A stretch of 37,931 bases of DNA from a virus (taxonomy: Duplodnaviria; Heunggongvirae; Uroviricota; Caudoviricetes): the IMG/VR virus record IMGVR_UViG_2711768047_000011; one strand, 5' to 3'. Below the pieces are notes generated by a model. The model saw only the letters and a list, made by a program, of their open reading frames with translations. It was not told the DNA's origin and did not search any database. Positions 3,952 through 28,655 of this stretch are shown here, piece by piece (position 1 is the stretch's first letter; the number at the start of each line of letters is the position of its first letter). Both the position numbers and the translations under genes were made by a program.

Positions 3952-4805
3952 GCACCATCCTGAAATGGGCGGGAAATAAAACTGCCATAATGTCAGAACT
4001 GAAAAAACATCTTCCTGCTGGCCCGCGACTGGTTGAACCTTTCGCGGGTTCCTGTGCTGTGATGATGGAGACGGATTATCCCAGCTATCTGGTTGCGGAT
4101 ATTAATCCTGATTTAATCAACCTCTATAAAAAGGTTGCCGCTGATTGTGAATCATTTATATCTCGCGCCAGAGTTTTATTTAAGGAAGCAAACAGGGAGG
4201 TGGCTTATTACAACATAAGGCAGGAGTTTAATTACTCAACTGAAATTACTGATTTCATGAAAGCGGTATATTTCCTGTATCTCAATCGTCACGGTTACCG
4301 TGGTTTATGTCGCTATAACAAGAGCGGGCATTTCAACATTCCCTACGGTAATTATAAAAATCCGTATTTCCCTGAAAAAGAAATTCGCGCATTTGCAGAA
4401 AAAGCCCAGCGGGCAACGTTTATCTGCGCCAGCTTTGATGAAACGCTGGCGATGTTGAAGGCGGGGGATGTGGTGTATTGCGATCCGCCGTATGACGGTA
4501 CGTTTTCCAGCTATCACACTGATGGTTTCACTGAAGATGACCAGTATCACCTGGCATCCGTTCTTGAACATCGGTCATCAGAAGGACATCCGGTCATTGT
4601 TTCTAACAGTGACACATCCCTGATCCGTTCGCTGTATCGCAATTTTACTCACCACTATATCAAGGTAAAACGCAGCATCGGTGTGGCAGCTGGCGAGGGT
4701 AAATCAGCAACAGAAATCATTGCTGTTTCCGGGCCGCGCTGCTGGGTGGGATTTGATTATTCGCGTGGCGTGGATAGTTCTGCCGTGTACGGAGTACGTG
4801 CATGA
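3948..4805 (+). CDS. dam: DNA adenine methyltransferase (Dam family, N6-A)
   Basis: N-terminal LKWAGNK SAM-binding motif and catalytic DPPY (CDPPYDG); GGAGGTGA RBS. Confidence 0.85.
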
Positions 4806-7216
4806 GCCATGCCGATATGAACAACTGCTGCGGCTTTAACGAGGCTGCCGCAGCGTTCTCATGGAACAGCCCGAAAAAGGCCATTAACCCTTATCTGGAC
4901 CCGGCGGAAGTTGCGCCGGTTTCTGCGCTTTCAAACCTGATCACTCTGTACGCTGCCGATAACGAGCAGGAACAGTTGCGCCGCGAGGCACTGAGTGATC
5001 AGGTCTGGGAGCGTTATTTTTTTAATGAATCACGTGATCCTGTCCAGCACGAAATGGAGCAGGATAAGCTCATTAGCCGGGCAAAGCTGGCGCATGAGCA
5101 GCAGCGTTTTAATCCGGATATGGTCATTCTGGCGGACGTCAACGCCCAGCCTTCCCATATCAGCAAGCCGCTGATGCAACGTATTGAATACTTCAGCAGC
5201 CTGGGCAGGCCAAAGGCTTATTCCCGCTATTTACGTGAGACGATTAAGCCATGTCTGGAACGACTGGAGCATGTACGCGACAGCCAGCTATCTGCATCTT
5301 TTCGTTTTATGGCAAGCCATGTAGGGCTGGACGGCCTGCTGATTCTGCCTGAAATGAGTCAGGATCAGGTGAAACGCCTGTCTACCCTTGTCGCTGCGCA
5401 TATGAGCATGTGCCTTGATGCAGCTTGTGGTGATTTGTATGCCACCGATGACGTTAAGCCAGAAGAAATCCGCAAGACATGGGAAAAGGTGGCAGCGGAA
5501 ACCCTGCGTCTGGATGTTATCCCGCCTGCGTTTGAGCAACTCCGTCGGAAAAGAAACCGCCGTAAACCCGTGCCCTATGAACTCATTCCGGGTTCGCTGG
5601 CGCGTATGTTGTGCGCCGACTGGTGGTACCGGAAATTATGGAAAATGCGTTGCGAATGGCGGGAAGAGCAGTTGCGTGCTGTCTGCCTGGTCAGCAAAAA
5701 AGCATCTCCCTATGTCAGCTATGAAGCCGTGATGCATAAACGTGAGCAGCGCCGCAAGTCACTGGAGTTTTTCCGTTCTCATGAACTGGTGAACGAAGAG
5801 GGCGACACGCTGGATATGGAAGACGTGGTAAACGCCAGCAGCAGCAACCCGGCGCACCGCCGCAATGAGATGATGGCCTGTGTTAAAGGTCTGGAGCTTA
5901 TCGCGGAAATGCGCGGTGACTGCGCCGTTTTCTACACCATTACCTGTCCGTCACGTTTCCATTCCACGCTCAATAACGGCAGACCAAACCCAACTTGGAC
6001 AAATGCGACGGTAAGACAAAGCAGCGATTATCTGGTCGGCATGTTTGCTGCATTTCGTAAGGCGATGCACAAAGCCGGATTACGCTGGTATGGCGTGCGG
6101 GTGGCTGAGCCGCATCATGACGGTACAGTTCACTGGCACCTGTTGTGTTTTATGCGCAAAAAAGACCGCCGCGCCATCACTGCATTGTTGCGTAAGTTTG
6201 CCATCCGTGAAGACCGCGAGGAACTGGGTAATAACACTGGTCCACGCTTTAAATCTGAGCTGATAAACCCGCGCAAAGGAACACCGACAAGCTACATCGC
6301 GAAATACATTAGTAAGAACATTGACGGGCGTGGTCTGGCTGGCGAGATCAGCAAGGAAACGGGTAAATCCCTGCGTGATAACGCTGAATACGTTAATGCC
6401 TGGGCGTCTCTGCATCGTGTTCAGCAATTCCGCTTCTTTGGCATTCCGGGGCGTCAGGCTTACCGTGAACTGCGATTGCTGGCTGGTCAGGCGGCAAGGC
6501 AACAGGGGGACAAAAAAGCAGGTGCGCCGGTACTGGATAACCCGCGCCTTGATGCCATCCTGGCTGCTGCTGATGCCGGTTGTTTTGCCTCCTACATCAT
6601 GAAGCAGGGCGGCGTACTGGTTCCCCGCAAATATCACCTCATCAGAACCGCTTATGAAATCAACGAAGAGCCGACCGCCTATGGCGATCACGGTATTCGT
6701 ATTTATGGCATCTGGTCACCCATTGCAGAGGGTAAGATCTGCACTCATGCAGTGAAGTGGAAAATGGTTCGTAAAGCCGTTGACGTTCAGGAGGCGGCAG
6801 CCGACCAGGGCGCTTGCGCCCCTTGGACTCGTGGCAATAACTGTCCCCTTGCTGAAAATTTGTACCAACAAGGGAAAGACAAATCAGCTGATGGGGATAC
6901 CAGAACGGATATCATCCGTATGGATGACAAGGAGTTGCACGATTATCTGCACAGTATGAACAAAAAAGAGCGCCGAGAACTGGCTGCAAGGTTACGCCTG
7001 GTGAAACCGAAACGGCGTAGAGACTACAAACAGCGAATTACAGACCATCAACGACAGCAGCTCGTCTATGAACTGAAGTCCAGAGGATTTGATGGCAGCG
7101 AGAAAGAGGTCGATTTACTCCTTCGCGGCGGCAGCATTCCGTCAGGAGCAGGCCTGCGAATCTTCTATCGGAACCAGCGTTTGCAGGAAGATGATAAGTG
7201 GCGGAACCTGTATTAA
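4802..7216 (+). CDS. rolling-circle replication initiation endonuclease (P2 gpA-like)
   Basis: 804 aa; HUH-type motif (TVHWHLLCF) and tandem-Tyr region ([12 protein letters not shown]); start overlaps dam stop. Confidence 0.85.
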
Positions 7217-7976: not shown

Positions 7977-9035
7977 TTAATTTTCAATTCCCTCCATTTT
8001 ACAATGAGTTTTTTCCCAGAACTGTAATACAACAGGACTAGCCCACTCTGGCATCAGTGCGTTATTTAAAAAACTGAAAACATCATGAGACGCATCAGCA
8101 TTTTTTCTAAGGAATTTCCAGCCTTTTCTAGTATTTATCTCAACAATACCTAACCCACCATCATCAAACATATGCATCTTGAATTCAGGATTGTTTACAC
8201 CTAGAGATTTTATTTCTTTTATGTATGGACTATCTTCATCCATAAATATTTTCTCTATGTGCTTAGCACAATGATATATTTTATTTCGATAAGTTGATAC
8301 GCTCACAGCGGTACGCGCTGTTGTTATTCCCATTCCTAATGGGGCATATGCTTTTCCATCCATCACTACGGGCAGATTTATTCCATTTTTTCTTAAGTTT
8401 GCAATATCTGAATCTGTAGTTGGATGAATACAAGCTAAGCCTGAAATACCTTTCATTTCAAATATTTCTGCTGCTTCTGGCCAGTTGCGTATGAATGTTT
8501 CTACCAAATCTCTTTGAGAAAAAAGATTTGGTTCTATGTTTTTATCATGATGTTTTATATCAATAAAAAGCACAGCGTTTGAGTACACCTTCAGGAATAA
8601 TACCCACTCAGCACGATCTGAGTATTTTTTACTTGAACTTACTGGATTTAATGGCAGATGGAGGTGATGAATCCCCCAATCAGCCCATAGGTTATCCGTT
8701 CTTTTCGTCGCCTTTTTACCGCTTGTGTCATTGAATAATGTTAATGTTTTACTCTGATAAGGATTTACATCACCACCAGTAGTAAACAACATCTCGATTC
8801 TCTGCAATCCAACCCTTGCGCCATCGTGAATATTTTCAGGAAATCGATCTGATTTTAAAATTATTCGTTTTTGTGGAGCAATGTAGCGTAAAAGAAAATC
8901 ACACCACCTCAGTAGAGGATCGTGAAGATTTGAGTGCCCGGATTCATCATATAATAACCCAAATGCTTGAATTCCCTTCTCTGAAATTTCGTCAATATCT
9001 TTGATTAGATCAATATTTTTTCGTGCGTCCAACAT
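7977..9035 (-). CDS. hypothetical protein (352 aa), hotspot cargo of unknown function
   Basis: AT-rich ORF on opposite strand to flanking phage genes; GGAG RBS before ATG; no family recognised by eye. Confidence 0.6.
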   Translation of the reverse strand: MLDARKNIDLIKDIDEISEKGIQAFGLLYDESGHSNLHDPLLRWCDFLLRYIAPQKRIILKSDRFPENIHDGARVGLQRIEMLFTTGGDVNPYQSKTLTLFNDTSGKKATKRTDNLWADWGIHHLHLPLNPVSSSKKYSDRAEWVLFLKVYSNAVLFIDIKHHDKNIEPNLFSQRDLVETFIRNWPEAAEIFEMKGISGLACIHPTTDSDIANLRKNGINLPVVMDGKAYAPLGMGITTARTAVSVSTYRNKIYHCAKHIEKIFMDEDSPYIKEIKSLGVNNPEFKMHMFDDGGLGIVEINTRKGWKFLRKNADASHDVFSFLNNALMPEWASPVVLQFWEKTHCKMEGIEN

Positions 9036-9568: not shown

Positions 9569-11350
9569 ATGAATTTTGATGCAACACCACTAAATATAAA
9601 AAACATTCTATCTGTAAAACAAAGATATGTTATTCCTCGTAATCAACGTGAGTTTAGTTGGGAAAAGCTTCAGCTTGAAGAGTTATGGCAAGATATTGTC
9701 AGAAACATAAGGTTGAATGAAGATGGACAGAACTTGGAGTGTTCAGAATATTTTATAGGGACTATTGTTCTTTCTGGAGCAGATAGTGATGATGTATTAG
9801 AAGTGGTTGATGGACAACAACGATTTTCAGTTATTACTATATTGCTTTCATTAATATCGCGTAAATTGCGTTCCTTAGGGCAAGATTCATTAGCGGATGA
9901 TATATTTAAAACATATATCGTTACTGTGAGTCCTACATTTAGCAGAAGCCAATTAGCTTCAAATGGTGAGACATTTATTGAAAAATTAGCAAAAAATAGC
10001 GATAGAACATATTTTAAGTTAAAATATCAAGATCGCGAAGAGCATCAAGTTGATGAATCTTGTGAAGAGGATGTACGTATAAGTTATGCAGGAATTTTTC
10101 TTTCTAGAAAACTAGGGAGGAAATCACTCTGTTCTGCATTGTTGCGAGATGGTGCAAAACATTATAATAACCAAGATTATATATTTTGTTTGACTGCTGT
10201 ATATAGAATGATTACCAATTATTTGAAGTTGGTAAAAATATCTGTAGGTAAGGAGGATGATGCTTATGATATTTTTGAAGTGTTGAATGCTCGAGGGATA
10301 AACTTAAGTTCAATTGATTTGATAAAGAATAAAGTATTCCAAACTTGCACTCAAACATATCCGGTAGATATTGCAAAAACAAAATGGGATTATATCGTTA
10401 CTCAAATTGAGTCTAGGGATAGTAATAGCACTATTGCTGATTATATTAGAACGTGGTGGCTTTCTAAGTATAATTATATTGGAGAAGATCAACTTTATCG
10501 TGCTTTTAAACGTGAGATTCAAGATGAGAATACTTTATTGTCATCAGCATCATTTCTGAACGAATTATATGATGATGTTGAATTATACTGTAAAATAATA
10601 GCGCCAAATACAGATGACTGGCCTCAACCTGATCAGCGTGAAATTTACAACTCGTTAAAAGCATTCGAGATTTTTAATGTGAGTATTCCTCGACCATTTG
10701 TACTCTCATTACTTAGAAAACGTAAAGAGAAACCGAGAGCCCTTACACAATCAATGCTGATAGAATGTTTGAAGTCCTTAGAGTCATTTCACTTTAAGTT
10801 TAATGCAGTATGTCGTCTAAGACCATCTGGAATCGATGCAAAATATTCTGTATTAGCAGTAAGAATGAATAAGGCATTAAATAAAAGAGATGTTGAGGGT
10901 GTTATTAATGACGCGTTAGATTATTTTACACAGAAAGGGCCTTCAGAAAATATATTCAAACAAGCATTTTCAAAGAATATTGTTTATACAAATAAAAAAT
11001 CTGGGCAAAGGAAGTTGATTGTTTATATTTTTGACAAATTGGAACGTATCAGACGAGGGACGCGAGAGTTAAAAATGGATATAGTTTCTTTGGAGCACAT
11101 ATCATCTCAAAGCAAAACTAACGAGTCAGTCGTGGGTATGATTGGTAATTTACTACCACTCTGTTTTTCACTTAATGAAGATTGCAAAAATTATGAGTTG
11201 CACAAAAAAATAGAATCTTATAAAAAATCTGATTTAAAATTAGTTACAGAGTTTGTTAGTGAGTCAGAAGCAAGAGAACATAAATGGGATGATTCATTAA
11301 TAAAAGAAAGAACAGATAGCTTGGCGTTAGAAACGTTTGCTAAAATATAA
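9569..11350 (+). CDS. DUF262/DUF1524 fusion protein (GmrSD-family type IV restriction-like nuclease)
   Basis: N-terminal ParB-like DUF262 motifs (IPRNQREFSW, DGQQR at 9809..9823, FEVLNARGINLSSIDLIKN); C-terminal His-Me finger-like DUF1524 region (LEHISSQS...IGNLLPL...N). AT-rich, GAGGA RBS. Confidence 0.75.
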   Translation: MNFDATPLNIKNILSVKQRYVIPRNQREFSWEKLQLEELWQDIVRNIRLNEDGQNLECSEYFIGTIVLSGADSDDVLEVVDGQQRFSVITILLSLISRKLRSLGQDSLADDIFKTYIVTVSPTFSRSQLASNGETFIEKLAKNSDRTYFKLKYQDREEHQVDESCEEDVRISYAGIFLSRKLGRKSLCSALLRDGAKHYNNQDYIFCLTAVYRMITNYLKLVKISVGKEDDAYDIFEVLNARGINLSSIDLIKNKVFQTCTQTYPVDIAKTKWDYIVTQIESRDSNSTIADYIRTWWLSKYNYIGEDQLYRAFKREIQDENTLLSSASFLNELYDDVELYCKIIAPNTDDWPQPDQREIYNSLKAFEIFNVSIPRPFVLSLLRKRKEKPRALTQSMLIECLKSLESFHFKFNAVCRLRPSGIDAKYSVLAVRMNKALNKRDVEGVINDALDYFTQKGPSENIFKQAFSKNIVYTNKKSGQRKLIVYIFDKLERIRRGTRELKMDIVSLEHISSQSKTNESVVGMIGNLLPLCFSLNEDCKNYELHKKIESYKKSDLKLVTEFVSESEAREHKWDDSLIKERTDSLALETFAKI

Positions 11351-22959: not shown

Positions 22960-23557
22960 TCTGCTGCCACCGGGTTCAACACCACTGGAGCGCCGACTGG
23001 CGCAAGCGTGCAGCGGGATTTCTGATTTGCAGGTGCCGCTGCGTGACCTGTGGGATCCGACGACCTGTCCGGTCAGTTTCCTGCCTTATCTCGCCTGGGC
23101 GTTCTCTGTGGATCGCTGGGATGAGGGCTGGACTGAAAGCGTCAAGCGCCAGGTGGTGAAGGATGCTTTTTATATTCATCAGCATAAAGGGACCACCAGT
23201 GCCGTGCGTCGGGTGGTGGAGCCGTTCGGCTTTCTGATCCGCATTATTGAGTGGTGGCAGACCGGAGAGACACCGGGCACGTTTCGTCTGGATATCGGCG
23301 TGCAGGACCAGGGCATCACTGAAGATACCTATCTGGAACTTGAGCGACTGATAAGCGATGCCAAACCATGTAGCCGTCACATGATCGGCATGTCCATCAA
23401 CCTGCAGACCAGCGGCCCGCATTGGGTGGGAGTCGCCAGCTATCTTGGCGAAGAAATCACGATCTATCCGTATATCAACGAAACGATTATTTCCGGTGGC
23501 ACCGCGCATGAAGGCGGGGCGGTCCATGTTATTGACACAATGAGAGTGAATCCATGA
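22952..23557 (+). CDS. baseplate/tail protein (P2 gpI-like)
   Basis: 201 aa; position after J. Confidence 0.8.
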   Translation: MNSLLPPGSTPLERRLAQACSGISDLQVPLRDLWDPTTCPVSFLPYLAWAFSVDRWDEGWTESVKRQVVKDAFYIHQHKGTTSAVRRVVEPFGFLIRIIEWWQTGETPGTFRLDIGVQDQGITEDTYLELERLISDAKPCSRHMIGMSINLQTSGPHWVGVASYLGEEITIYPYINETIISGGTAHEGGAVHVIDTMRVNP

Positions 23558-25059
23558 GCACAAAATTTTATACCCTGCTGACGGATATTGGCGCGGCGAA
23601 ACTTGCCAGCGCCGCCGCGCTCGGTGTGCCTTTAAAAATTACCCATATGGCGGTCGGCGATGGCGGCGGAACATTGCCAACGCCGGACGCAAAGCAGACA
23701 GCATTGGTAAATGAGAAACGCCGGGCTGCGCTGAATATGCTCTATATCGACCCGCAGAACAGCAGCCAGATTATTGCTGAACAGGTGATCCCTGAAAACG
23801 AGGGCGGTTGGTGGATACGTGAAGTGGGCTTGTTTGATGAGTCCGGGGCATTGATTGCCGTGGGTAACTGCCCGGAAAGCTATAAGCCGCAACTGGCTGA
23901 AGGCAGTGGGCGTACCCAGACCGTGCGCATGGTGCTGATTACCAGCAGTACGGACAATATCATCCTGAAAATCGACCCTGCTGTAGTGCTGGCAACACGC
24001 AAGTATGTGGATGACAAGGCACTGGAGCTGAAGGTGTACGTGGATGACCTGATAGCAAAACATCTTGCCGCACTGGACCCGCATTCACAGTATGCACCCA
24101 AAGAAAGTCCGACATTTACCGGAACCCCCAAAGCGCCAACGCCAGCGGCGGGGAATAATACCACTCAGCTTGCGACCACCGCATTTGTTCAGGCGGCACT
24201 GACGGCCCTGATTAATGGTGCGCCAGCCACGCTGGACACGCTGAAAGAAATAGCCGCAGCCATTAACAATGATCCGAAATTCAGTACCACCATTAACAAT
24301 GCACTGGCACAAAAAGCGCCGCTGTCGAGTCCGGCACTCACCGGAACGCCAACAGCACCTACTGCGGCGCAGTCGGTCAACAATACACAGATTGCCACTA
24401 CAGCTTTTGTGAAATCAGCGATTGCAGCAATGGTGGGTTCTGCACCTGCGGCACTGGATACACTGAACGAACTGGCGGCGGCACTGGGGAATGATCCGAA
24501 CTTTGCCACGACAATGCTTAATGCGCTGGCAGGTAAACAACCGCTGGACAATACGCTGACTCATTTGAGTGGAAAGGATGTAGCAGGTCTTCTCGCATAC
24601 CTTGGTTTGGGAGAAGGTGCTCCAGCTATTGGCGTTCCGTTCTTCTGGCCCTCCGCTGCAATGCCAAATTCTGTCATCGACAGCTGGTCCGGTATGGTGT
24701 TTTTGAAGTTCAACGGCGCGAAATTCTCTGCCACTGATTATCCTGTGCTGGCGAAAGTGTTTCCTTCGCTGGTATTACCTGAAGCCCGCGGTGATTTCAT
24801 TCGTATCTGGGATGACGGGCGAGGTGCAGACGGTGGTCGCGAATTATTAAGCTGGCAGGCAGCTACAAACTTTTCTCAGTTTGCCGGGAATATAGGCGAA
24901 GGTGCGGGACACGCAATTAACTTTCATGATGGCATCGCCGGAAATCAGCCAGGATTTTCACGATTTAATTTCACCAGTAACTCTGTGGGTGATGGTGTGA
25001 ATTTTGTTGCTGTCAGACCGCGAAATATTGCATTTAACTTTCTGGTGAGGGCTAAATAA
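23554..25059 (+). CDS. tail fibre protein (P2 gpH-like)
   Basis: 501 aa; internal tandem repeat (about 60 aa x2: ...TQLATTAFV...DTLKEIAAA...NDPKF... / ...TQIATTAFV...DTLNELAAA...NDPNF...). Confidence 0.85.
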   Translation: MSTKFYTLLTDIGAAKLASAAALGVPLKITHMAVGDGGGTLPTPDAKQTALVNEKRRAALNMLYIDPQNSSQIIAEQVIPENEGGWWIREVGLFDESGALIAVGNCPESYKPQLAEGSGRTQTVRMVLITSSTDNIILKIDPAVVLATRKYVDDKALELKVYVDDLIAKHLAALDPHSQYAPKESPTFTGTPKAPTPAAGNNTTQLATTAFVQAALTALINGAPATLDTLKEIAAAINNDPKFSTTINNALAQKAPLSSPALTGTPTAPTAAQSVNNTQIATTAFVKSAIAAMVGSAPAALDTLNELAAALGNDPNFATTMLNALAGKQPLDNTLTHLSGKDVAGLLAYLGLGEGAPAIGVPFFWPSAAMPNSVIDSWSGMVFLKFNGAKFSATDYPVLAKVFPSLVLPEARGDFIRIWDDGRGADGGRELLSWQAATNFSQFAGNIGEGAGHAINFHDGIAGNQPGFSRFNFTSNSVGDGVNFVAVRPRNIAFNFLVRAK

Positions 25060-25652
25060 TGAAACCTGTTTTTGATGAAAATGGGCTGGCTACAGTGCCG
25101 GGCGATATGCGTTGTTTTTATTATGATGCTGAAACATCTGAGTATACGGGCTGGTCTGATGAATATATTAATACTGGCGTAAGTATGCCCGCCTGTTCCA
25201 CTGGTATTGACCCTGGCGAAAACATTCCGGGAAAAGTGGCAGTATTTACGGGTAAGGGATGGAGCCATGAAGAAGACCATCGCAATGAGACCGTTTACTC
25301 AACTGAAAATGGCGCAGCTGTTACAGTGGATTATATCGGTGCCATCAAAGACGGTTATGTCACGCTTTCACCGTTAACGCCATACGATAAATGGGATGGT
25401 GAGAAATGGGTGACGGATACCGAGGCACAGCATAGCGCCGCAGTAGAAGCGGCAGAAGCACAGCGCCAGTCGCTGATTGATGCTGCAATGGCTTCCATCA
25501 GTCTGATTCAACTGAAATTACAGGCCGGACGGAAGTTGACGCAGGCAGAAACAACCCGACTTAACGCCGTGCTGGATTACATTGACGCGGTGGCGGCAAC
25601 AGATACCAGCACCGCGCCGGATGTCATCTGGCCTGAACTGCCGGAGGCGTAG
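25059..25652 (+). CDS. tail fibre assembly protein (P2 gpG-like)
   Basis: 197 aa; C-terminus ...LDYIDAV...DTSTAPDVIWPELP typical of fibre assembly chaperones. Confidence 0.8.
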   Translation: MKPVFDENGLATVPGDMRCFYYDAETSEYTGWSDEYINTGVSMPACSTGIDPGENIPGKVAVFTGKGWSHEEDHRNETVYSTENGAAVTVDYIGAIKDGYVTLSPLTPYDKWDGEKWVTDTEAQHSAAVEAAEAQRQSLIDAAMASISLIQLKLQAGRKLTQAETTRLNAVLDYIDAVAATDTSTAPDVIWPELPEA

Positions 25653-25902
25653 GCCATTCAATATCTGGTGCACTGGAAGTATCGACCAGTTCCAGTGCGT
25701 CCAGGTAATCCAGCCACAAATTATATTGTGCCAGTTCCTCACCTTTCAGACAACCAATAGCTGCTTTGCCAGGCCATTGCTTACTGTTTATAAACTCATT
25801 AGCCCAGTCTATTCGCAGCTGTTTCTCTGCTTCGGCAGCAATAACAATCTCATATAAATGAAACTGATAAGTTTTTATTAAAAGTAAGATGGATACCACC
25901 AT
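25624..25902 (-). pseudogene. inverted remnant of an alternative tail fibre assembly gene (G')
   Basis: Minus-strand ORF whose C-terminus (...LDYLDALELVDTSSAPDIEWPTPP) parallels the gpG C-terminus and converges on G with a 29-bp overlap; N-terminal about two-thirds missing. Confidence 0.55.
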
Positions 25903-25925
25903 TTAATATAAATGGTGGTTCACAG

Positions 25926-26798
25926 TTAACTAGCGTGTAATAAGTTGAACAGGTTTTTAGTTACTTCGTTTTTAGTACTAAAAAACATATCTTTAAGGTC
26001 AGGTAATGCAAAGAGAGCATTTGGGGTATTCGGTACAACAATAGGAGGTTCATATCCGTTGTCATACATTTTCTTTAAAGCGGCTACTATTTTTTTCTGA
26101 TTTCGATTGAATTCATTCATGTCAATAAAAATTTCTCCAGATAGTGTCCCGTCATCTTCACGTAGTATCGCTGGTTTGACACGACATATCTGATCCATTT
26201 CTCCAGTAGAAAAACCGGCAATCGCTGCATTAAATAACAAAGATGAAGTAGCCCATTTTTCATATAGTTTTTTGATAGCCATGCTTCTGATTTTTTTATC
26301 GTTGATATATCCAATGCCACTGGCCAAAACTTCGGTTAATGGATTTTCCCCGCGAGTTACTCCAGACCAATAGTTGTGCATCCAGGGCGCATTTTGCTCA
26401 AGTGGAGAGCCGAGATAATCAGTGATCCACTCTGAATCCACCTCTGTAAAGTTCAAACCATGAAAATCAATTTCTGCAATAGTATTTTTATAGTTTTGAT
26501 TTAAACTCCAACGGTCGATTGCTATTTCAGCCATTTCTTTTGTTTTGAATAGGTATATTCCGGTTAGGCGGGAAACCTTATCTCTGAAATTGTCTGAGCG
26601 AACCTTTTCAAGAGCTAACTCATTTTGTAATTTTTCATTGTGATTATCTGATAAGTATTTCCTTACTAGATTGTAGAACCAAATAGATACTCCAAACTCA
26701 CTTTTATAGCAAATTGATTCAATTCTTCCTATTGCAACCTCCCAGGCAACAATTGGATTATTTAAATTTAAGTAAGCATATAGTTTTCTCTGTTCCAT
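25926..26798 (-). CDS. hypothetical protein (290 aa), AT-rich cargo in the tail-fibre switch locus
   Basis: ATG at 26796..26798 with AAGGA RBS (MEQRKLYAYL...); very AT-rich; no family recognised. Confidence 0.55.
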   Translation of the reverse strand: MEQRKLYAYLNLNNPIVAWEVAIGRIESICYKSEFGVSIWFYNLVRKYLSDNHNEKLQNELALEKVRSDNFRDKVSRLTGIYLFKTKEMAEIAIDRWSLNQNYKNTIAEIDFHGLNFTEVDSEWITDYLGSPLEQNAPWMHNYWSGVTRGENPLTEVLASGIGYINDKKIRSMAIKKLYEKWATSSLLFNAAIAGFSTGEMDQICRVKPAILREDDGTLSGEIFIDMNEFNRNQKKIVAALKKMYDNGYEPPIVVPNTPNALFALPDLKDMFFSTKNEVTKNLFNLLHAS

Positions 26799-26935
26799 TT
26801 TTATTTTCCTTATAGATGCTATGAAGGTTATTATTACATAAATGTTCGATAAATATTTTAAAGTTTTAACTATGTTTCGGTGGCAATAAATATACATTAC
26901 AAGTGAAATTTATCAAGATAACAAAAGGATAGCTA

Positions 26936-27340
26936 ATGCTAATAGGCTATGTACTCGTGTCAACAAATGACCAGAACACCGAGCTGTAACTCTTTATGCT
27001 GACAGAAGAGTTGCGCCAGCATGGTGTGAATTTTAGAAGCCTGACTGACAGTATTGATACCAGTACCCCAATGGGCCGTTTCTTTTTTCATGTCACGGGT
27101 GCCCTGGCTGAAATGGAACGCGAACTGATAGTTGAACGTACCAGGGCGGGGCTTGCTGCAGCTCGCGCCAAAGGCAGAGTAGGTGGACGCCGTCCTAAGT
27201 TGACCACCGAACAGTGGGCACAGATTGGGCGTTTACTCGAGGCCGGAGAATCAAGACAGCGTATTGCACTGATTTTTGATGTGGGTGTTTCCACAATTTA
27301 TAGAAAATTTCCGCCAAATAAGAGCAATGAATCCCCCTGA
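26936..27340 (+). pseudogene. Gin/Hin/Pin-family serine DNA invertase, internally deleted
   Basis: N-terminus MLIGYVLVSTNDQNTEL then in-frame stop at 26987, resuming as LTEELRQHGVNFRSLTDSIDTSTPMGRFFFHV...GGRRPKLT (C-terminal HTH). About 58 codons of the catalytic domain absent and the conserved Arg in YVRVST is Leu. Confidence 0.7.
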
Positions 27341-27388
27341 ATCAGCATAATTTTGATTATCCCTGCAAGCAGACAAATACCGTCATTT

Positions 27389-27406
27389 TGTGTGAATAAC
27401 GGTACA
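27389..27406. promoter_or_regulatory. TGT-N12-ACA dyad upstream of FI (candidate Ogr-dependent late promoter element)
   Basis: TTGTGTGAATAACGGTACAA centred 86 bp upstream of the FI ATG, same spacing as the O element. Confidence 0.45.
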
Positions 27407-27482
27407 ACTGCGCTTAGCTGTTTGTCAGGCACAATCACTTCAACATAGGGCGAAGCCTAATCCAATCAGGAGGTTCGCCACT

Positions 27483-28655
27483 ATGGCTCAGGATTACCAC
27501 CACGGGGTGCGTGTTGTTGAAGTCAACGAAGGCACCCGATCCATTACCACGGTGAGCACCGCCATCGTGGGTATGGTCTGCACGGGCGATGATGCCGATG
27601 CAAAAATGTTTCCTCTTAATAAACCTGTGCTGATCACTGATGTGCTGACTGCAAGCGGTAAAGCGGGTGAGTCCGGCACATTGGCCCGCTCGTTGGATGC
27701 CATCGCTGACCAGGCAAAACCCGTGACCGTTGTTGTGCGTGTGCCGCAGGGTGAAACGGAAGACGAAACCACGACCAATATCATCGGCGCAGTGACTGCT
27801 GAAGGTAAAAAAACAGGCATGAAAGCCCTGTTATCTGCCCAGTCACAGCTCGGCGTTAAACCGCGCATTCTCGGCGTGCCAGGCCACGACACCAAGGCGG
27901 TAGCTACTGAGTTGCTGAGCGTGGCGCAAAGCCTGCGTGGGTTTGCTTACCTGTCAGCGTATGGCTGCAAGACGGTACAGGAGGCGATCACTTACCGTGA
28001 AAACTTCAGCCAGCGCGAAGGAATGCTGATTTGGCCTGACTTTACTGGCTGGGACACGGTGCTGAATGCCGACGCAACGGCATATGCCACCGCCCGTGCG
28101 CTTGGTCTGCGTGCCAAAATTGATGAGCAGACAGGGTGGCACAAAAGCCTGTCCAACGTGGGCGTGAACGGTGTCACCGGAATTTCTGCTGATGTGTTCT
28201 GGGATCTGCAGGACCCGGCAACTGATGCGGGACTGCTTAACCAGAACGATGTTACCACACTTATCCGCAAAGACGGCTTTCGCTTCTGGGGTTCCCGCTG
28301 CCTGAGTGATGACCCACTCTTTGCCTTCGAAAACTACACCCGCACGGCGCAGGTGCTGACGGACACAATGGCAGAAGCGCACATGTGGGCGGTGGACAAA
28401 CCGCTGAACCCGTCGCTGGCGCGCGACATTATCGAGGGTATCCGCGCCAAAATGCGCAGCTTGGTAAGTCAGGGGTATCTCATTGGTGGTGATTGCTGGC
28501 TGGACGAGTCGGTGAACGACAAAGACACCCTGAAAGCCGGAAAACTCACCATCGACTACGACTACACGCCAGTGCCGCCACTTGAAAATCTGATGCTGCG
28601 CCAGCGCATCACCGATCAGTACCTGGTGAATTTCGCCAGCCAGGTCAGCGCGTAA
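27483..28655 (+). CDS. contractile tail sheath protein (P2 gpFI-like)
   Basis: 390 aa; RBS AGGAGG. Confidence 0.9.

What the first reader, a model, noticed from the sequence alone, without database searches (positions are those of the whole stretch)
24590..27340. Fossil Gin/Pin-type invertible tail-fibre switch with an internally deleted invertase
The invertase reading frame starts with the canonical serine-recombinase N-terminus (MLIGYVLVSTNDQNTEL, but with Leu for the conserved catalytic Arg), hits a stop at 26987, and resumes in the same frame with the C-terminal half (...GVNFRSLTDSIDT...GGRRPKLT...), so about 58 codons are missing. Together with the truncated inverted G' (25624..25902) this shows that a host-range switching system was disabled and its alternative arm replaced. 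A possible hix/gix-like crossover remnant lies in H near 24595..24615 (ATACCTTGGTTTGGGAGAA), with a weaker one just upstream of the invertase (about 26910..26935).
Basis: partly seen in the sequence, partly recalled or inferred. Interest (0 to 1): 0.5.

Follow-up and report, generated by a model that had tools for sequence, protein, structure and literature searches.

The report
Dead tail-fibre inversion switch in prophage
This is the decayed, locked remnant of a phage Mu Gin-type DNA-inversion switch that once let a P2-like E. coli prophage alternate its tail-fibre tips; it is an ordinary kind of decay, and the more interesting item is the intact, conserved gene of unknown function sitting beside it.

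Summary
The window is a P2-like E. coli prophage. Reading frame 26936-27340 is a Gin-family invertase with three lesions: Arg7 changed to Leu, a stop at 26987, and an in-frame loss of 54 codons (19-72), not about 58. Only the C-terminal 75 codons of the inverted tail-fibre-assembly gene remain (25627-25851). The 26-bp crossover site inside H (24590-24615) is fully intact. No second site exists anywhere in the window. The proposed "weak site" before the invertase is not a site. It is the invertase leader, overlapping the -35 box of a promoter-like match.

The interpretation needs one correction. The AT-rich gene (25926-26798, minus strand, 290 aa) did not replace the alternative arm. In the one relative (L006) whose contig spans a complete switch, it lies outside the invertible segment, between the right crossover site and the invertase. 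The window lineage then lost the right site, Hv' and half of tfa' by deletion.

Eight independent assemblies carry the identical invertase lesion, and the seven that span the whole region have the same orientation. A second lineage shares the left junction but has a larger invertase deletion. The cargo protein has an ADP-ribosyltransferase-superfamily fold of the DUF2441/BC2332 type. It is under purifying selection and also occurs in the other P2 hot spot, so it is a candidate defence gene.

The parts
23554..25059 (+). Tail-fibre gene H (501 aa), an intact ORF now fixed as Hc fused to one Hv variant
   Evidence: ORF. Pfam Phage_tail_fib N-terminal domain, E 2.5e-64. Collinear with H of phage 500465-1.
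24590..24615 (+). Left 26-bp crossover site (gix/hix type) at the Hc/Hv junction, with central TT at 24602-24603. It is intact but orphaned.
   Evidence: Identical to the left site of the MB50 switch and 25/26 to phage 500465-1. Matrix score 32.6 bits against a next-best 11.1 in the window. The same matrix finds exactly the two annotated G-segment boundaries of Mu.
25059..25652 (+). Tail-fibre assembly gene (P2 G / tfa), intact, 197 aa
   Evidence: Caudo_TAP E 1.1e-27.
25627..25851 (-). Remnant of the inverted alternative tfa'. Only codons 73-147 remain, with the stop at 25624-25626. The rest of the listed ORF, up to 25902, is unrelated read-through.
   Evidence: tblastn 81% identity to residues 73-147 of tfa' of phage 500465-1. 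Caudo_TAP profile positions 65-130 only. RefSeq marks it 'incomplete, missing N-terminus' in strain C4.
25852..25855 (.). Deletion joint. tfa' homology ends at 25851 and cargo-cassette homology starts at 25856. The right crossover site, Hv' and tfa' codons 1-72 are gone.
   Evidence: In L006 and L016 the right site begins within a few bases of the point that aligns with 25856.
25895..25919 (.). Hairpin with an 11-bp stem (ACCACCATTTA-ATA-TAAATGGTGGT) just 3' of the cargo gene, probably its terminator
   Evidence: Read from the sequence. Nearly identical sequence in L003, L006 and L016, and a comparable hairpin in L010 and L017. The terminator-like scan hit at 25900-25888 overlaps it.
25926..26798 (-). 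Cargo gene: 290-aa protein of unknown function (DUF2441/BC2332-like, ADP-ribosylation-superfamily fold). It is AT-rich and intact.
26889..26916 (-). Promoter-like site (TTGATA-16-TATATT) upstream of the cargo start.
   Evidence: a consensus match only. It lies downstream of the ATG at 26897, which favours the 26798 start also used by RefSeq.
26936..27340 (+). Invertase pseudogene. Codons 1-17 with R7L, TAA at 26987-26989, codons 19-72 deleted, codons 73-188 retained (end of the catalytic domain, E-helix and HTH_7).
   Evidence: RefSeq marks it 'recombinase family protein, incomplete'.
27483..28655 (+). Tail sheath gene FI, the right border of the P2 G-FI (Z/fun) variable locus
   Evidence: ORF. 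Annotated as tail sheath in relatives.

Best explanation
The region is the inactivated remnant of a Gin/Cin/Pin-class serine-invertase switch in a P2-like (Peduoviridae) E. coli prophage.

Ancestral state, as seen in relatives: Hc - left site - Hv - tfa > < tfa' - Hv' - right site - (terminator - cargo <) - invertase >. The invertase flipped the segment between two inverted 26-bp sites, so that the constant part of H was fused to either of two receptor-binding tips.

In this lineage one deletion removed the right site, Hv' and the first 72 codons of tfa'. It measures about 0.6 kb in the geometry of phage 500465-1. The invertase acquired R7L, a stop at codon 18 and an in-frame 162-bp deletion. 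That deletion removes the Asp/Arg catalytic cluster. By inference it also removes at least part of the Fis-dependent enhancer that lies inside the 5' end of such genes.

With one site and no enzyme the segment cannot invert. The prophage is locked to H(501 aa) plus G.

The 290-aa AT-rich gene is an independent moron of the P2 G-FI hot spot. It has its own promoter-like site and hairpin, and it is kept by selection while the switch decays around it. Its likely role is NAD-dependent, in anti-phage defence or exclusion. That role is inferred, not shown.
For: Switch identity and layout:
- Intact relatives have the layout above, with inverted 26-bp sites about 56 bp before the invertase.
- The relative's invertase matches Mu Gin at E 3e-93.
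- A site matrix built from the relatives finds exactly Mu's annotated G boundaries.

State of the window:
- It has one site only.
- tfa' is reduced to residues 73-147.
- The invertase lacks codons 19-72 and has R7L and a stop.

Cargo position in relatives:
- The cargo coexists with a complete switch in L006, where it lies outside the invertible segment.
- It sits beside intact invertases in L007-9, L016 and L017.

Decay series:
- GN02461 shares the left joint and the T of the Leu7 codon, but has a larger invertase deletion.
- L010 keeps only invertase residues 133-183 and a half-site.

Not an artefact:
- The exact invertase lesion (26936-27010) is present in eight independent assemblies. The seven whose contigs span the whole 3929-bp region (23554-27482) are collinear with the window, with no gap and no inversion.

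Selection:
- Cargo dN/dS is 0.04-0.15. The invertase remnant carries 5-7 replacements, against 1-2 between intact alleles.
Against: - The order of events is inferred from present-day comparisons only.
- L006 is only 87% identical in the cargo and has different tfa'/Hv' modules, so it is a model of the ancestor, not the ancestor.
- The invertase coding sequence is of the 500465-1 type, while its leader is of the cassette type. Recombination has therefore reshuffled this locus, and a one-step replacement cannot be fully excluded.
- Loss of the enhancer was not tested.
- The function of the cargo rests on fold and neighbourhood alone.
Confidence: 0.88

Rival explanations
1. One-step replacement. 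A foreign cassette carrying the AT-rich gene recombined into a resident switch. This overwrote Hv', half of tfa', the right site and the 5' part of the invertase, and created both joints at once.
For: The invertase leader and cargo are homologous only to cassette-bearing relatives, whereas the invertase coding sequence is 94-96% identical to the cargo-less 500465-1 allele. The sequence at the invertase joint is unusually diverged.
Against: Homology to the 500465-1 allele resumes at 26927, just before the ATG, so the cassette/invertase joint is not at the internal deletion. Relatives carry the cassette together with a complete switch and intact invertases, so acquiring it does not require replacement. 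GN02461 shares the left joint but has a different invertase lesion, which shows the lesions arose separately.
Confidence: 0.1
2. Sequencing or assembly artefact: the invertase and tfa' are really intact.
For: None beyond the general possibility.
Against: The identical 75-nt lesion region is present in eight independent assemblies. The seven that span the region are collinear with the window over 3929 bp. Three complete genomes are 99.9-100% identical. The identical cargo protein is indexed in 1158 blocks of the collection. In all seven contexts shown the gene layout and spacing are the same, apart from gene calls missing in some and one altered left flank (L021).
Confidence: 0.01
3. The retained C-terminal 114-residue ORF (26996-27340: E-helix remnant plus HTH) is made by re-initiation 9 nt after the stop. 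It would serve as a site-binding or regulatory protein rather than being junk.
For: An ATG lies 6 nt after the end of the TAA. The remnant's dN/dS against intact alleles is below 1, at 0.12-0.27. The HTH_7 domain is complete.
Against: There is no Shine-Dalgarno sequence before the ATG. Other lineages truncate the remnant further, to 90 and 51 codons. Most of the measured divergence may predate inactivation. Six or seven replacements have accumulated in 116 codons.
Confidence: 0.04
4. The switch still works, using an invertase supplied in trans by another prophage (for example e14 Pin).
For: The left site is perfectly conserved, and Gin-family invertases are known to cross-complement (established knowledge).
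Against: Inversion needs two inverted sites, and the window has only one. All seven sampled assemblies that span the region have the same orientation.
Confidence: 0.02

Closest known systems
Phage Mu G segment / Gin (also P1 C segment/Cin and e14 P segment/Pin)
   Same: It shares the constant-part/variable-part tail-fibre gene with a 26-bp crossover site at the junction. It has the paired forward and inverted tfa genes and a Gin-family invertase immediately downstream. The relative's invertase matches Gin at E 3e-93, and the site class is cross-validated on Mu.
   Different: Here the right site, Hv' and half of tfa' are deleted and the invertase is broken, so nothing can invert. The host phage is P2-like, not Mu- or P1-like. 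A 1.07-kb cargo cassette lies between the former right site and the invertase. In Mu and phage 500465-1 that gap is about 55 bp.
Intact invertible tail-fibre switches of P2-like coliphages, e.g. Escherichia phage 500465-1 (Wadgaonvirus), Klebsiella phage KP12, and prophages of strains MB50 and SA31-1
   Same: The flanks are the same (gene I, H, tfa ... sheath FI) at 95-96% DNA identity. The left site and the invertase allele are the same.
   Different: Those relatives keep tfa' (147 aa), Hv', the right site and a 188-aa invertase, and they have no cargo gene.
Cargo of the P2 Z/fun (G-FI) hot spot
   Same: The position between the tail-fibre genes and FI is the same. The literature describes this hot spot as mixed-purpose, often holding a DNA invertase, swapped tail-fibre modules and defence-like cargo (bioRxiv 10.1101/2024.10.15.618418).
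   Different: The cargo here matches no PADLOC defence model and has no tested function.
BC2332 (PDB 2AUA) / Pfam DUF2441, ADP-ribosylation superfamily
   Different: The direct Pfam score is below threshold: 13.7 bits against a cut-off of 25. The protein is about 80 residues longer, with an extra C-terminal region. No catalytic motif has been verified.

Membership tests
DNA-invertase (Gin/Hin/Cin/Pin) subclass of serine recombinases | Complete N-terminal catalytic domain with the Ser nucleophile and the Arg/Asp pocket (Arg8, Asp67, Arg68, Arg71 in gamma-delta resolvase numbering) | tested here: not met
   Only residues 1-17 and 73-188 remain. Ser9 is present, but Arg7 is Leu, codon 18 is a stop, and the KLDRLGRS block is deleted. 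The Pfam Resolvase match covers only profile positions 85-144.
DNA-invertase (Gin/Hin/Cin/Pin) subclass of serine recombinases | C-terminal HTH_7 DNA-binding domain and close sequence kinship to Gin | tested here: met
   HTH_7 E 2.7e-15. PHROG 125 'DNA invertase' E 1e-48. The remnant is 94% identical to an intact relative that matches Gin 3UJ3 at 3e-93.
Invertible tail-fibre (host-range) switch | Two 26-bp crossover sites in inverted orientation flanking the segment | tested here: not met
   One site at 24590-24615 scores 32.6 bits. No other position in 37.9 kb exceeds 11.1 bits. Relatives each have two.
Invertible tail-fibre (host-range) switch | Alternative Hv' and tfa' genes in inverted orientation | tested here: not met
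   Hv' is absent and tfa' is reduced to residues 73-147.
Invertible tail-fibre (host-range) switch | Fis-dependent recombinational enhancer within the 5' part of the invertase gene | not tested
   The location is known for Hin (about 100 bp from hix; PMC3798978). For Gin it is indicated by the title of Kahmann et al. 1985, cited there. The 162-bp deletion of codons 19-72 probably removes at least part of it. No Fis-site analysis was done.
Invertible tail-fibre (host-range) switch | Both orientations present in a population | tested here: not met
   Seven independent assemblies that span the region are collinear in one orientation. This is indirect evidence; no read-level data were available.
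P2-like phage G-FI (Z/fun) hot-spot moron | Accessory gene between the tail-fibre assembly gene and the tail sheath gene, with atypical composition and its own signals | tested here: met
   Position. GC 27-42% against about 55%. Promoter-like site and hairpin. Homologues occupy the same slot in L006, L010, L016 and L017.
DUF2441 / ADP-ribosyltransferase clan (cargo protein) | Significant match to the Pfam model | tested here: inconclusive
   Direct hmmscan gives E 0.063 and 13.7 bits, below the cut-off of 25. Precomputed PF10386 hits are on record for the identical protein and most homologues. tblastn gives 3e-13 to a Legionella protein annotated as DUF2441.
DUF2441 / ADP-ribosyltransferase clan (cargo protein) | BC2332-like ART fold | tested here: met
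DUF2441 / ADP-ribosyltransferase clan (cargo protein) | NAD-binding/catalytic motif (R-S-E or H-Y-E) in the right geometry, and enzymatic activity | not testable with these tools
   Invariant residues are R25, S38, E60, E64, R67, R77, D121, S122, Y143 and E156. Model coordinates could not be inspected.
Known anti-phage defence systems (PADLOC 2.0) | Match to a defence-protein model | tested here: not met
   No hit at E <= 1.

The most novel reading that the evidence does not exclude
The 290-aa DUF2441/BC2332-like protein is a new single-gene, NAD-utilising (ADP-ribosyltransferase or NADase) anti-phage or exclusion factor. It is carried in both canonical P2 hot spots and in integron-like cassette arrays. 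Its value to the lysogen would explain why this cassette persists unchanged in hundreds of E. coli assemblies while the neighbouring host-range switch decays.
Probability: 0.35. Interest if true: 0.6.

Novelty: new member of a known kind. Interest (0 to 1): 0.3.

Why it matters
The fossil switch is a clear example of how a phase-variable host-range module decays once a prophage becomes resident. It comes with an unusually complete decay series: intact, then site-less with a point-mutated invertase, then internally deleted, then an HTH stub. It also warns annotators that an orphan gix-type site can survive inside H.

The more useful lead is the neighbouring gene. It is an uncharacterised ART-superfamily protein under strong purifying selection. 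It sits in the P2 G-FI slot here, in the old/tin slot in Aeromonas, and in a toxin-antitoxin cassette array in Vibrio. That pattern is typical of defence genes, and it is cheap to test.

Tried and rejected
- Pfam, NCBIfam and PADLOC scans of the 323-aa and 290-aa versions of the cargo gave nothing significant. PHROGs gave only two families of unknown function.
- tblastn of the cargo against 50,697 phage records found nothing. Against plasmids it found only four distant hits.
- Sequence search of the PDB found nothing with the single sequence, and only E 0.37 to 2AUA with the family profile.
- The AFDB50 fold library was unavailable. BFVD gave only two short uncharacterised phage proteins.
- A five-sequence MAFFT alignment across the invertase joint misaligned the 5' fragment. 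It was replaced by protein alignment and local pairwise alignments.
- I considered whether the left deletion was made by the invertase itself, by crossover at the core. I rejected this because no half-site is left at the joint: the break lies at the outer edge of the former site, not at its centre.
- I considered the 323-aa start at 26897. I rejected it in favour of 26798 because all homologues are about 290 aa, RefSeq uses that start, and the promoter-like site lies downstream of 26897.
Full report
**What the window is**

The 37.9-kb window is a P2-like prophage.
- It has an integrase at the left end, replication gene A at 4802-7216, and the P2 tail and baseplate genes.
- Region 23500-27500 matches P2-like phages of Escherichia and Klebsiella at 95-96% identity, but only over about 51% of its length.
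- The same architecture at 99.9% identity occurs in three complete E. coli genomes (C4, SCU-105, SW070912). A 95% variant occurs in four more.

**Checking the observation**

Invertase frame:
- The frame opening at ATG 26936 reads MLIGYVLVSTNDQNTEL, stops at TAA 26987-26989, and continues in frame to 27340.
- The downstream part matches Pfam Resolvase profile positions 85-144 (E 1.5e-19) and HTH_7 (E 2.7e-15). It also matches PHROG 125 'DNA invertase' at E 1e-48.
- Against the intact 188-aa invertase of Escherichia phage 500465-1, residues 1-17 are 88% identical and residues 73-186 are 93.9% identical. That invertase matches Mu Gin (PDB 3UJ3) at E 3e-93.
- Alignment with Gin taken from the Mu record shows that codons 19-72 are absent: 54 codons or 162 bp, not about 58. 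Codon 18 is CAA changed to TAA. Arg7 is Leu.
- Arg7 corresponds to Arg8 of gamma-delta resolvase, a known catalytic-pocket residue (established knowledge). The deleted block contains the KLDRLGRS motif, which supplies the other pocket residues.

Inverted tfa':
- The inverted ORF 25624-25902 carries Caudo_TAP profile positions 65-130 (E 6.8e-18).
- Real homology to tfa' is confined to 25627-25851, which is residues 73-147 of 147.

**The crossover sites**

- Phage 500465-1 has inverted repeats TTCTCACATACCTTGGTTTGGGAGAAG (in H) and CTTCTCCCAAACCAACGTTTAAGAAAA. The second lies 56 bp before the invertase ATG.
- Strains MB50 and SA31-1 and metagenomic contig L006 have equivalent pairs.
- The window has TTCTCGCATACCTTGGTTTGGGAGAA at 24590-24615. 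This is identical to the MB50 left site.
- I built a half-site matrix from the four relatives. The window site scores 32.6 bits. The next best of 37,906 positions scores 11.1, and it lies far away.
- As an independent check, the same matrix picks out exactly the two annotated G-segment boundaries of phage Mu, at 21.6 bits each against a next best of 6.6.
- The site in H is therefore a complete gix/hix-class site, not a remnant, and it is the only one in the window.
It aligns with the invertase leader of L006 and overlaps a promoter-like TTGATA-16-TATATT match on the minus strand.

**What sits between tfa' and the invertase**

- A 1.07-kb AT-rich block (GC 27-42% against 50-57% in the flanks) carries one minus-strand gene.
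- All 104 homologues found are about 290 aa, and RefSeq starts the protein at MEQRKL. I therefore take 25926-26798 as the gene.
- An 11-bp-stem hairpin (25895-25919) follows it. Relatives carrying the cargo have the same or a comparable hairpin at that position.

The genomic contexts of the homologues decide the interpretation:
- **L006** (87% identical cargo). The order is H with left site, tfa, inverted full tfa' (134 aa), an inverted Hv' piece, the right site (2521-2546), the hairpin, the cargo, then an intact 183-aa invertase. The cargo is thus outside the invertible segment, between the right site and the invertase, and it coexists with a complete switch.
- **Citrobacter sedlakii (L007-9), L016 and L017.** Here the cargo lies beside intact invertases of 185-192 aa.
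- **Contig ends.** Two of these contigs stop at the right site: L016 exactly at the ...AAACCTT core and L008 nine bases past the site. L007 and L017 run 40-105 bases beyond it into Hv. A break at the core is what an actively inverting segment does to a short-read assembly. This is suggestive only.
- **L010** (78% identical cargo). Only invertase residues 133-183 and half a crossover site survive, and there is no tfa'.

**Reconstruction**

- Homology between the window and the cassette of L006/L016 runs leftwards to 25856. In those relatives that point lies a few bases from the outer edge of the right site. tfa' homology ends at 25851.
- One deletion therefore removed the right site, Hv' and tfa' codons 1-72. 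It measures about 0.6 kb in 500465-1 geometry.
- No half-site remains at the joint, so the deletion was not a crossover at the core.
- The GN02461 lineage (four genomes) shares this joint. Its invertase sequence jumps from ATGCTAATAGGCTATGTACT directly to CCAATGGG, between two GTAC repeats. The T after GTAC can only come from the CTC (Leu7) codon. This suggests R7L predates the split and that the larger deletions came later and independently.
- The invertase coding sequence is 94-96% identical to the cargo-less 500465-1 allele. Its leader matches only cassette-bearing relatives. The switch-over point is at about 26927. The locus is therefore a recombinant mosaic, but the internal 162-bp loss is a simple deletion within a 500465-1-type gene.

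**Not an artefact, and fixed**

- Eight independent assemblies contain the exact 26936-27010 sequence.
- Seven of them span the region and align collinearly with the window over 3929 bp, with no gap and no inversion. The eighth contig ends inside the region.
- The identical cargo protein is indexed in 1158 blocks of the assembly collection. In all seven contexts shown the layout and spacing are the same: 114-aa invertase stub, 92-aa tfa' ORF, 197-aa tfa, 501-aa H. Some gene calls are missing in individual records, and one (L021) has a different left flank.

**Selection**

- Cargo dN/dS is 0.04-0.15 in all comparisons. This includes 0.15 between the two fossil-bearing E. coli lineages.
- The invertase remnant carries 5-7 amino-acid replacements in 116 codons relative to intact alleles. 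Those alleles differ from each other by 1-2. This is consistent with relaxed constraint, though the numbers are small.

**The cargo protein**

- It matches no PADLOC, NCBIfam or above-threshold Pfam model. Every source calls it 'hypothetical'.
- With a 61-sequence alignment, AlphaFold gives pLDDT 95.2 and pTM 0.90.
- SCOP lists 'BC2332-like' as a family of the ADP-ribosylation superfamily (PMC3000352). Pfam places DUF2441 in the ART clan (PMC7955679).
- More distant homologues sit in other accessory-gene locations:
  - the other P2 hot spot (ogr ... gene A) of an Aeromonas prophage;
  - beside Ogr and portal remnants with kinase and AAA neighbours in Pantoea;
  - among ParE/Phd cassettes and IS elements in Vibrio cincinnatiensis;
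  - beside tail-fibre genes in Yersinia.
- The P2 G-FI locus is described as a mixed-purpose hot spot that often contains an invertase, swapped tail-fibre modules and defence-like cargo (bioRxiv 10.1101/2024.10.15.618418). The old/tin locus is a proven reservoir of defence systems (PMC9122126).
- A defence or exclusion role through NAD chemistry is therefore the best guess. It is inference only.

**Verdict**

- The finding is real. It is correctly classified as a dead Gin-type tail-fibre switch.
- Three corrections apply: 54 codons are missing, not 58; there is no second site; and the arm was deleted, not replaced.
- This is a new member of a well-known kind, and RefSeq already flags both remnants as pseudogenes.
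- The decay series and the conserved ART-fold moron are the parts worth following up.

Noticed in passing
window 7977-9035 (-) and 9569-11350 (+): The other P2 hot spot, between replication gene A and the portal gene, carries two defence-type genes. One is a PD-T4-7 homologue (PADLOC E 2.8e-144). The other is a GmrSD-type type IV restriction / HEC-06-like protein (GmrSD_N E 2e-32, GmrSD_C E 1e-11).
   Followed up: partly
L016 end (5960), L008 end (6964); also L007 and L017: In relatives with an intact invertase next to the cargo, two short-read contigs stop at the right crossover site. L016 ends exactly at the ...AAACCTT core and L008 nine bases past the site. L007 and L017 continue 40-105 bases beyond it. 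A break at the core is what active inversion in the sampled population would cause.
   Followed up: partly
window 23631-24450: 51 of the 53 differences between the window and strain C4 (and several other assemblies) over 23554-27482 cluster in the constant part of H. The cluster ends about 140 bp before the crossover site. This looks like a recombination patch. Assembly L022 has the window's version.
   Followed up: partly
L002 955-2460 (E. coli C4): RefSeq annotates H in strain C4 as two pseudogene fragments. The 1506-bp frame has no internal stop, so this is probably an annotation artefact.
   Followed up: partly
L010 2059-2300: A further-decayed relative keeps half a crossover site (TTCTCTAAACCTT) right after the cargo hairpin, and only the last 51 codons of the invertase.
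   Followed up: partly
window 26987-26998: An ATG (26996) lies 6 nt after the premature TAA, in the same frame. Re-initiation could yield a 114-aa E-helix and HTH fragment. No Shine-Dalgarno sequence is visible.
   Followed up: no
L021 1584-3501: One E. coli assembly with the identical cargo has gpU and gpD genes close to the cargo. No sheath, tube or invertase-stub genes are called between them, which suggests a further rearrangement or an annotation gap.
   Followed up: no
window 24590-24615: An orphan but perfect gix-type site could still pair with sites of other Pin-type prophages in the same chromosome, if an active invertase is present. That would give a possible route to large rearrangements. 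This is speculative.
   Followed up: no
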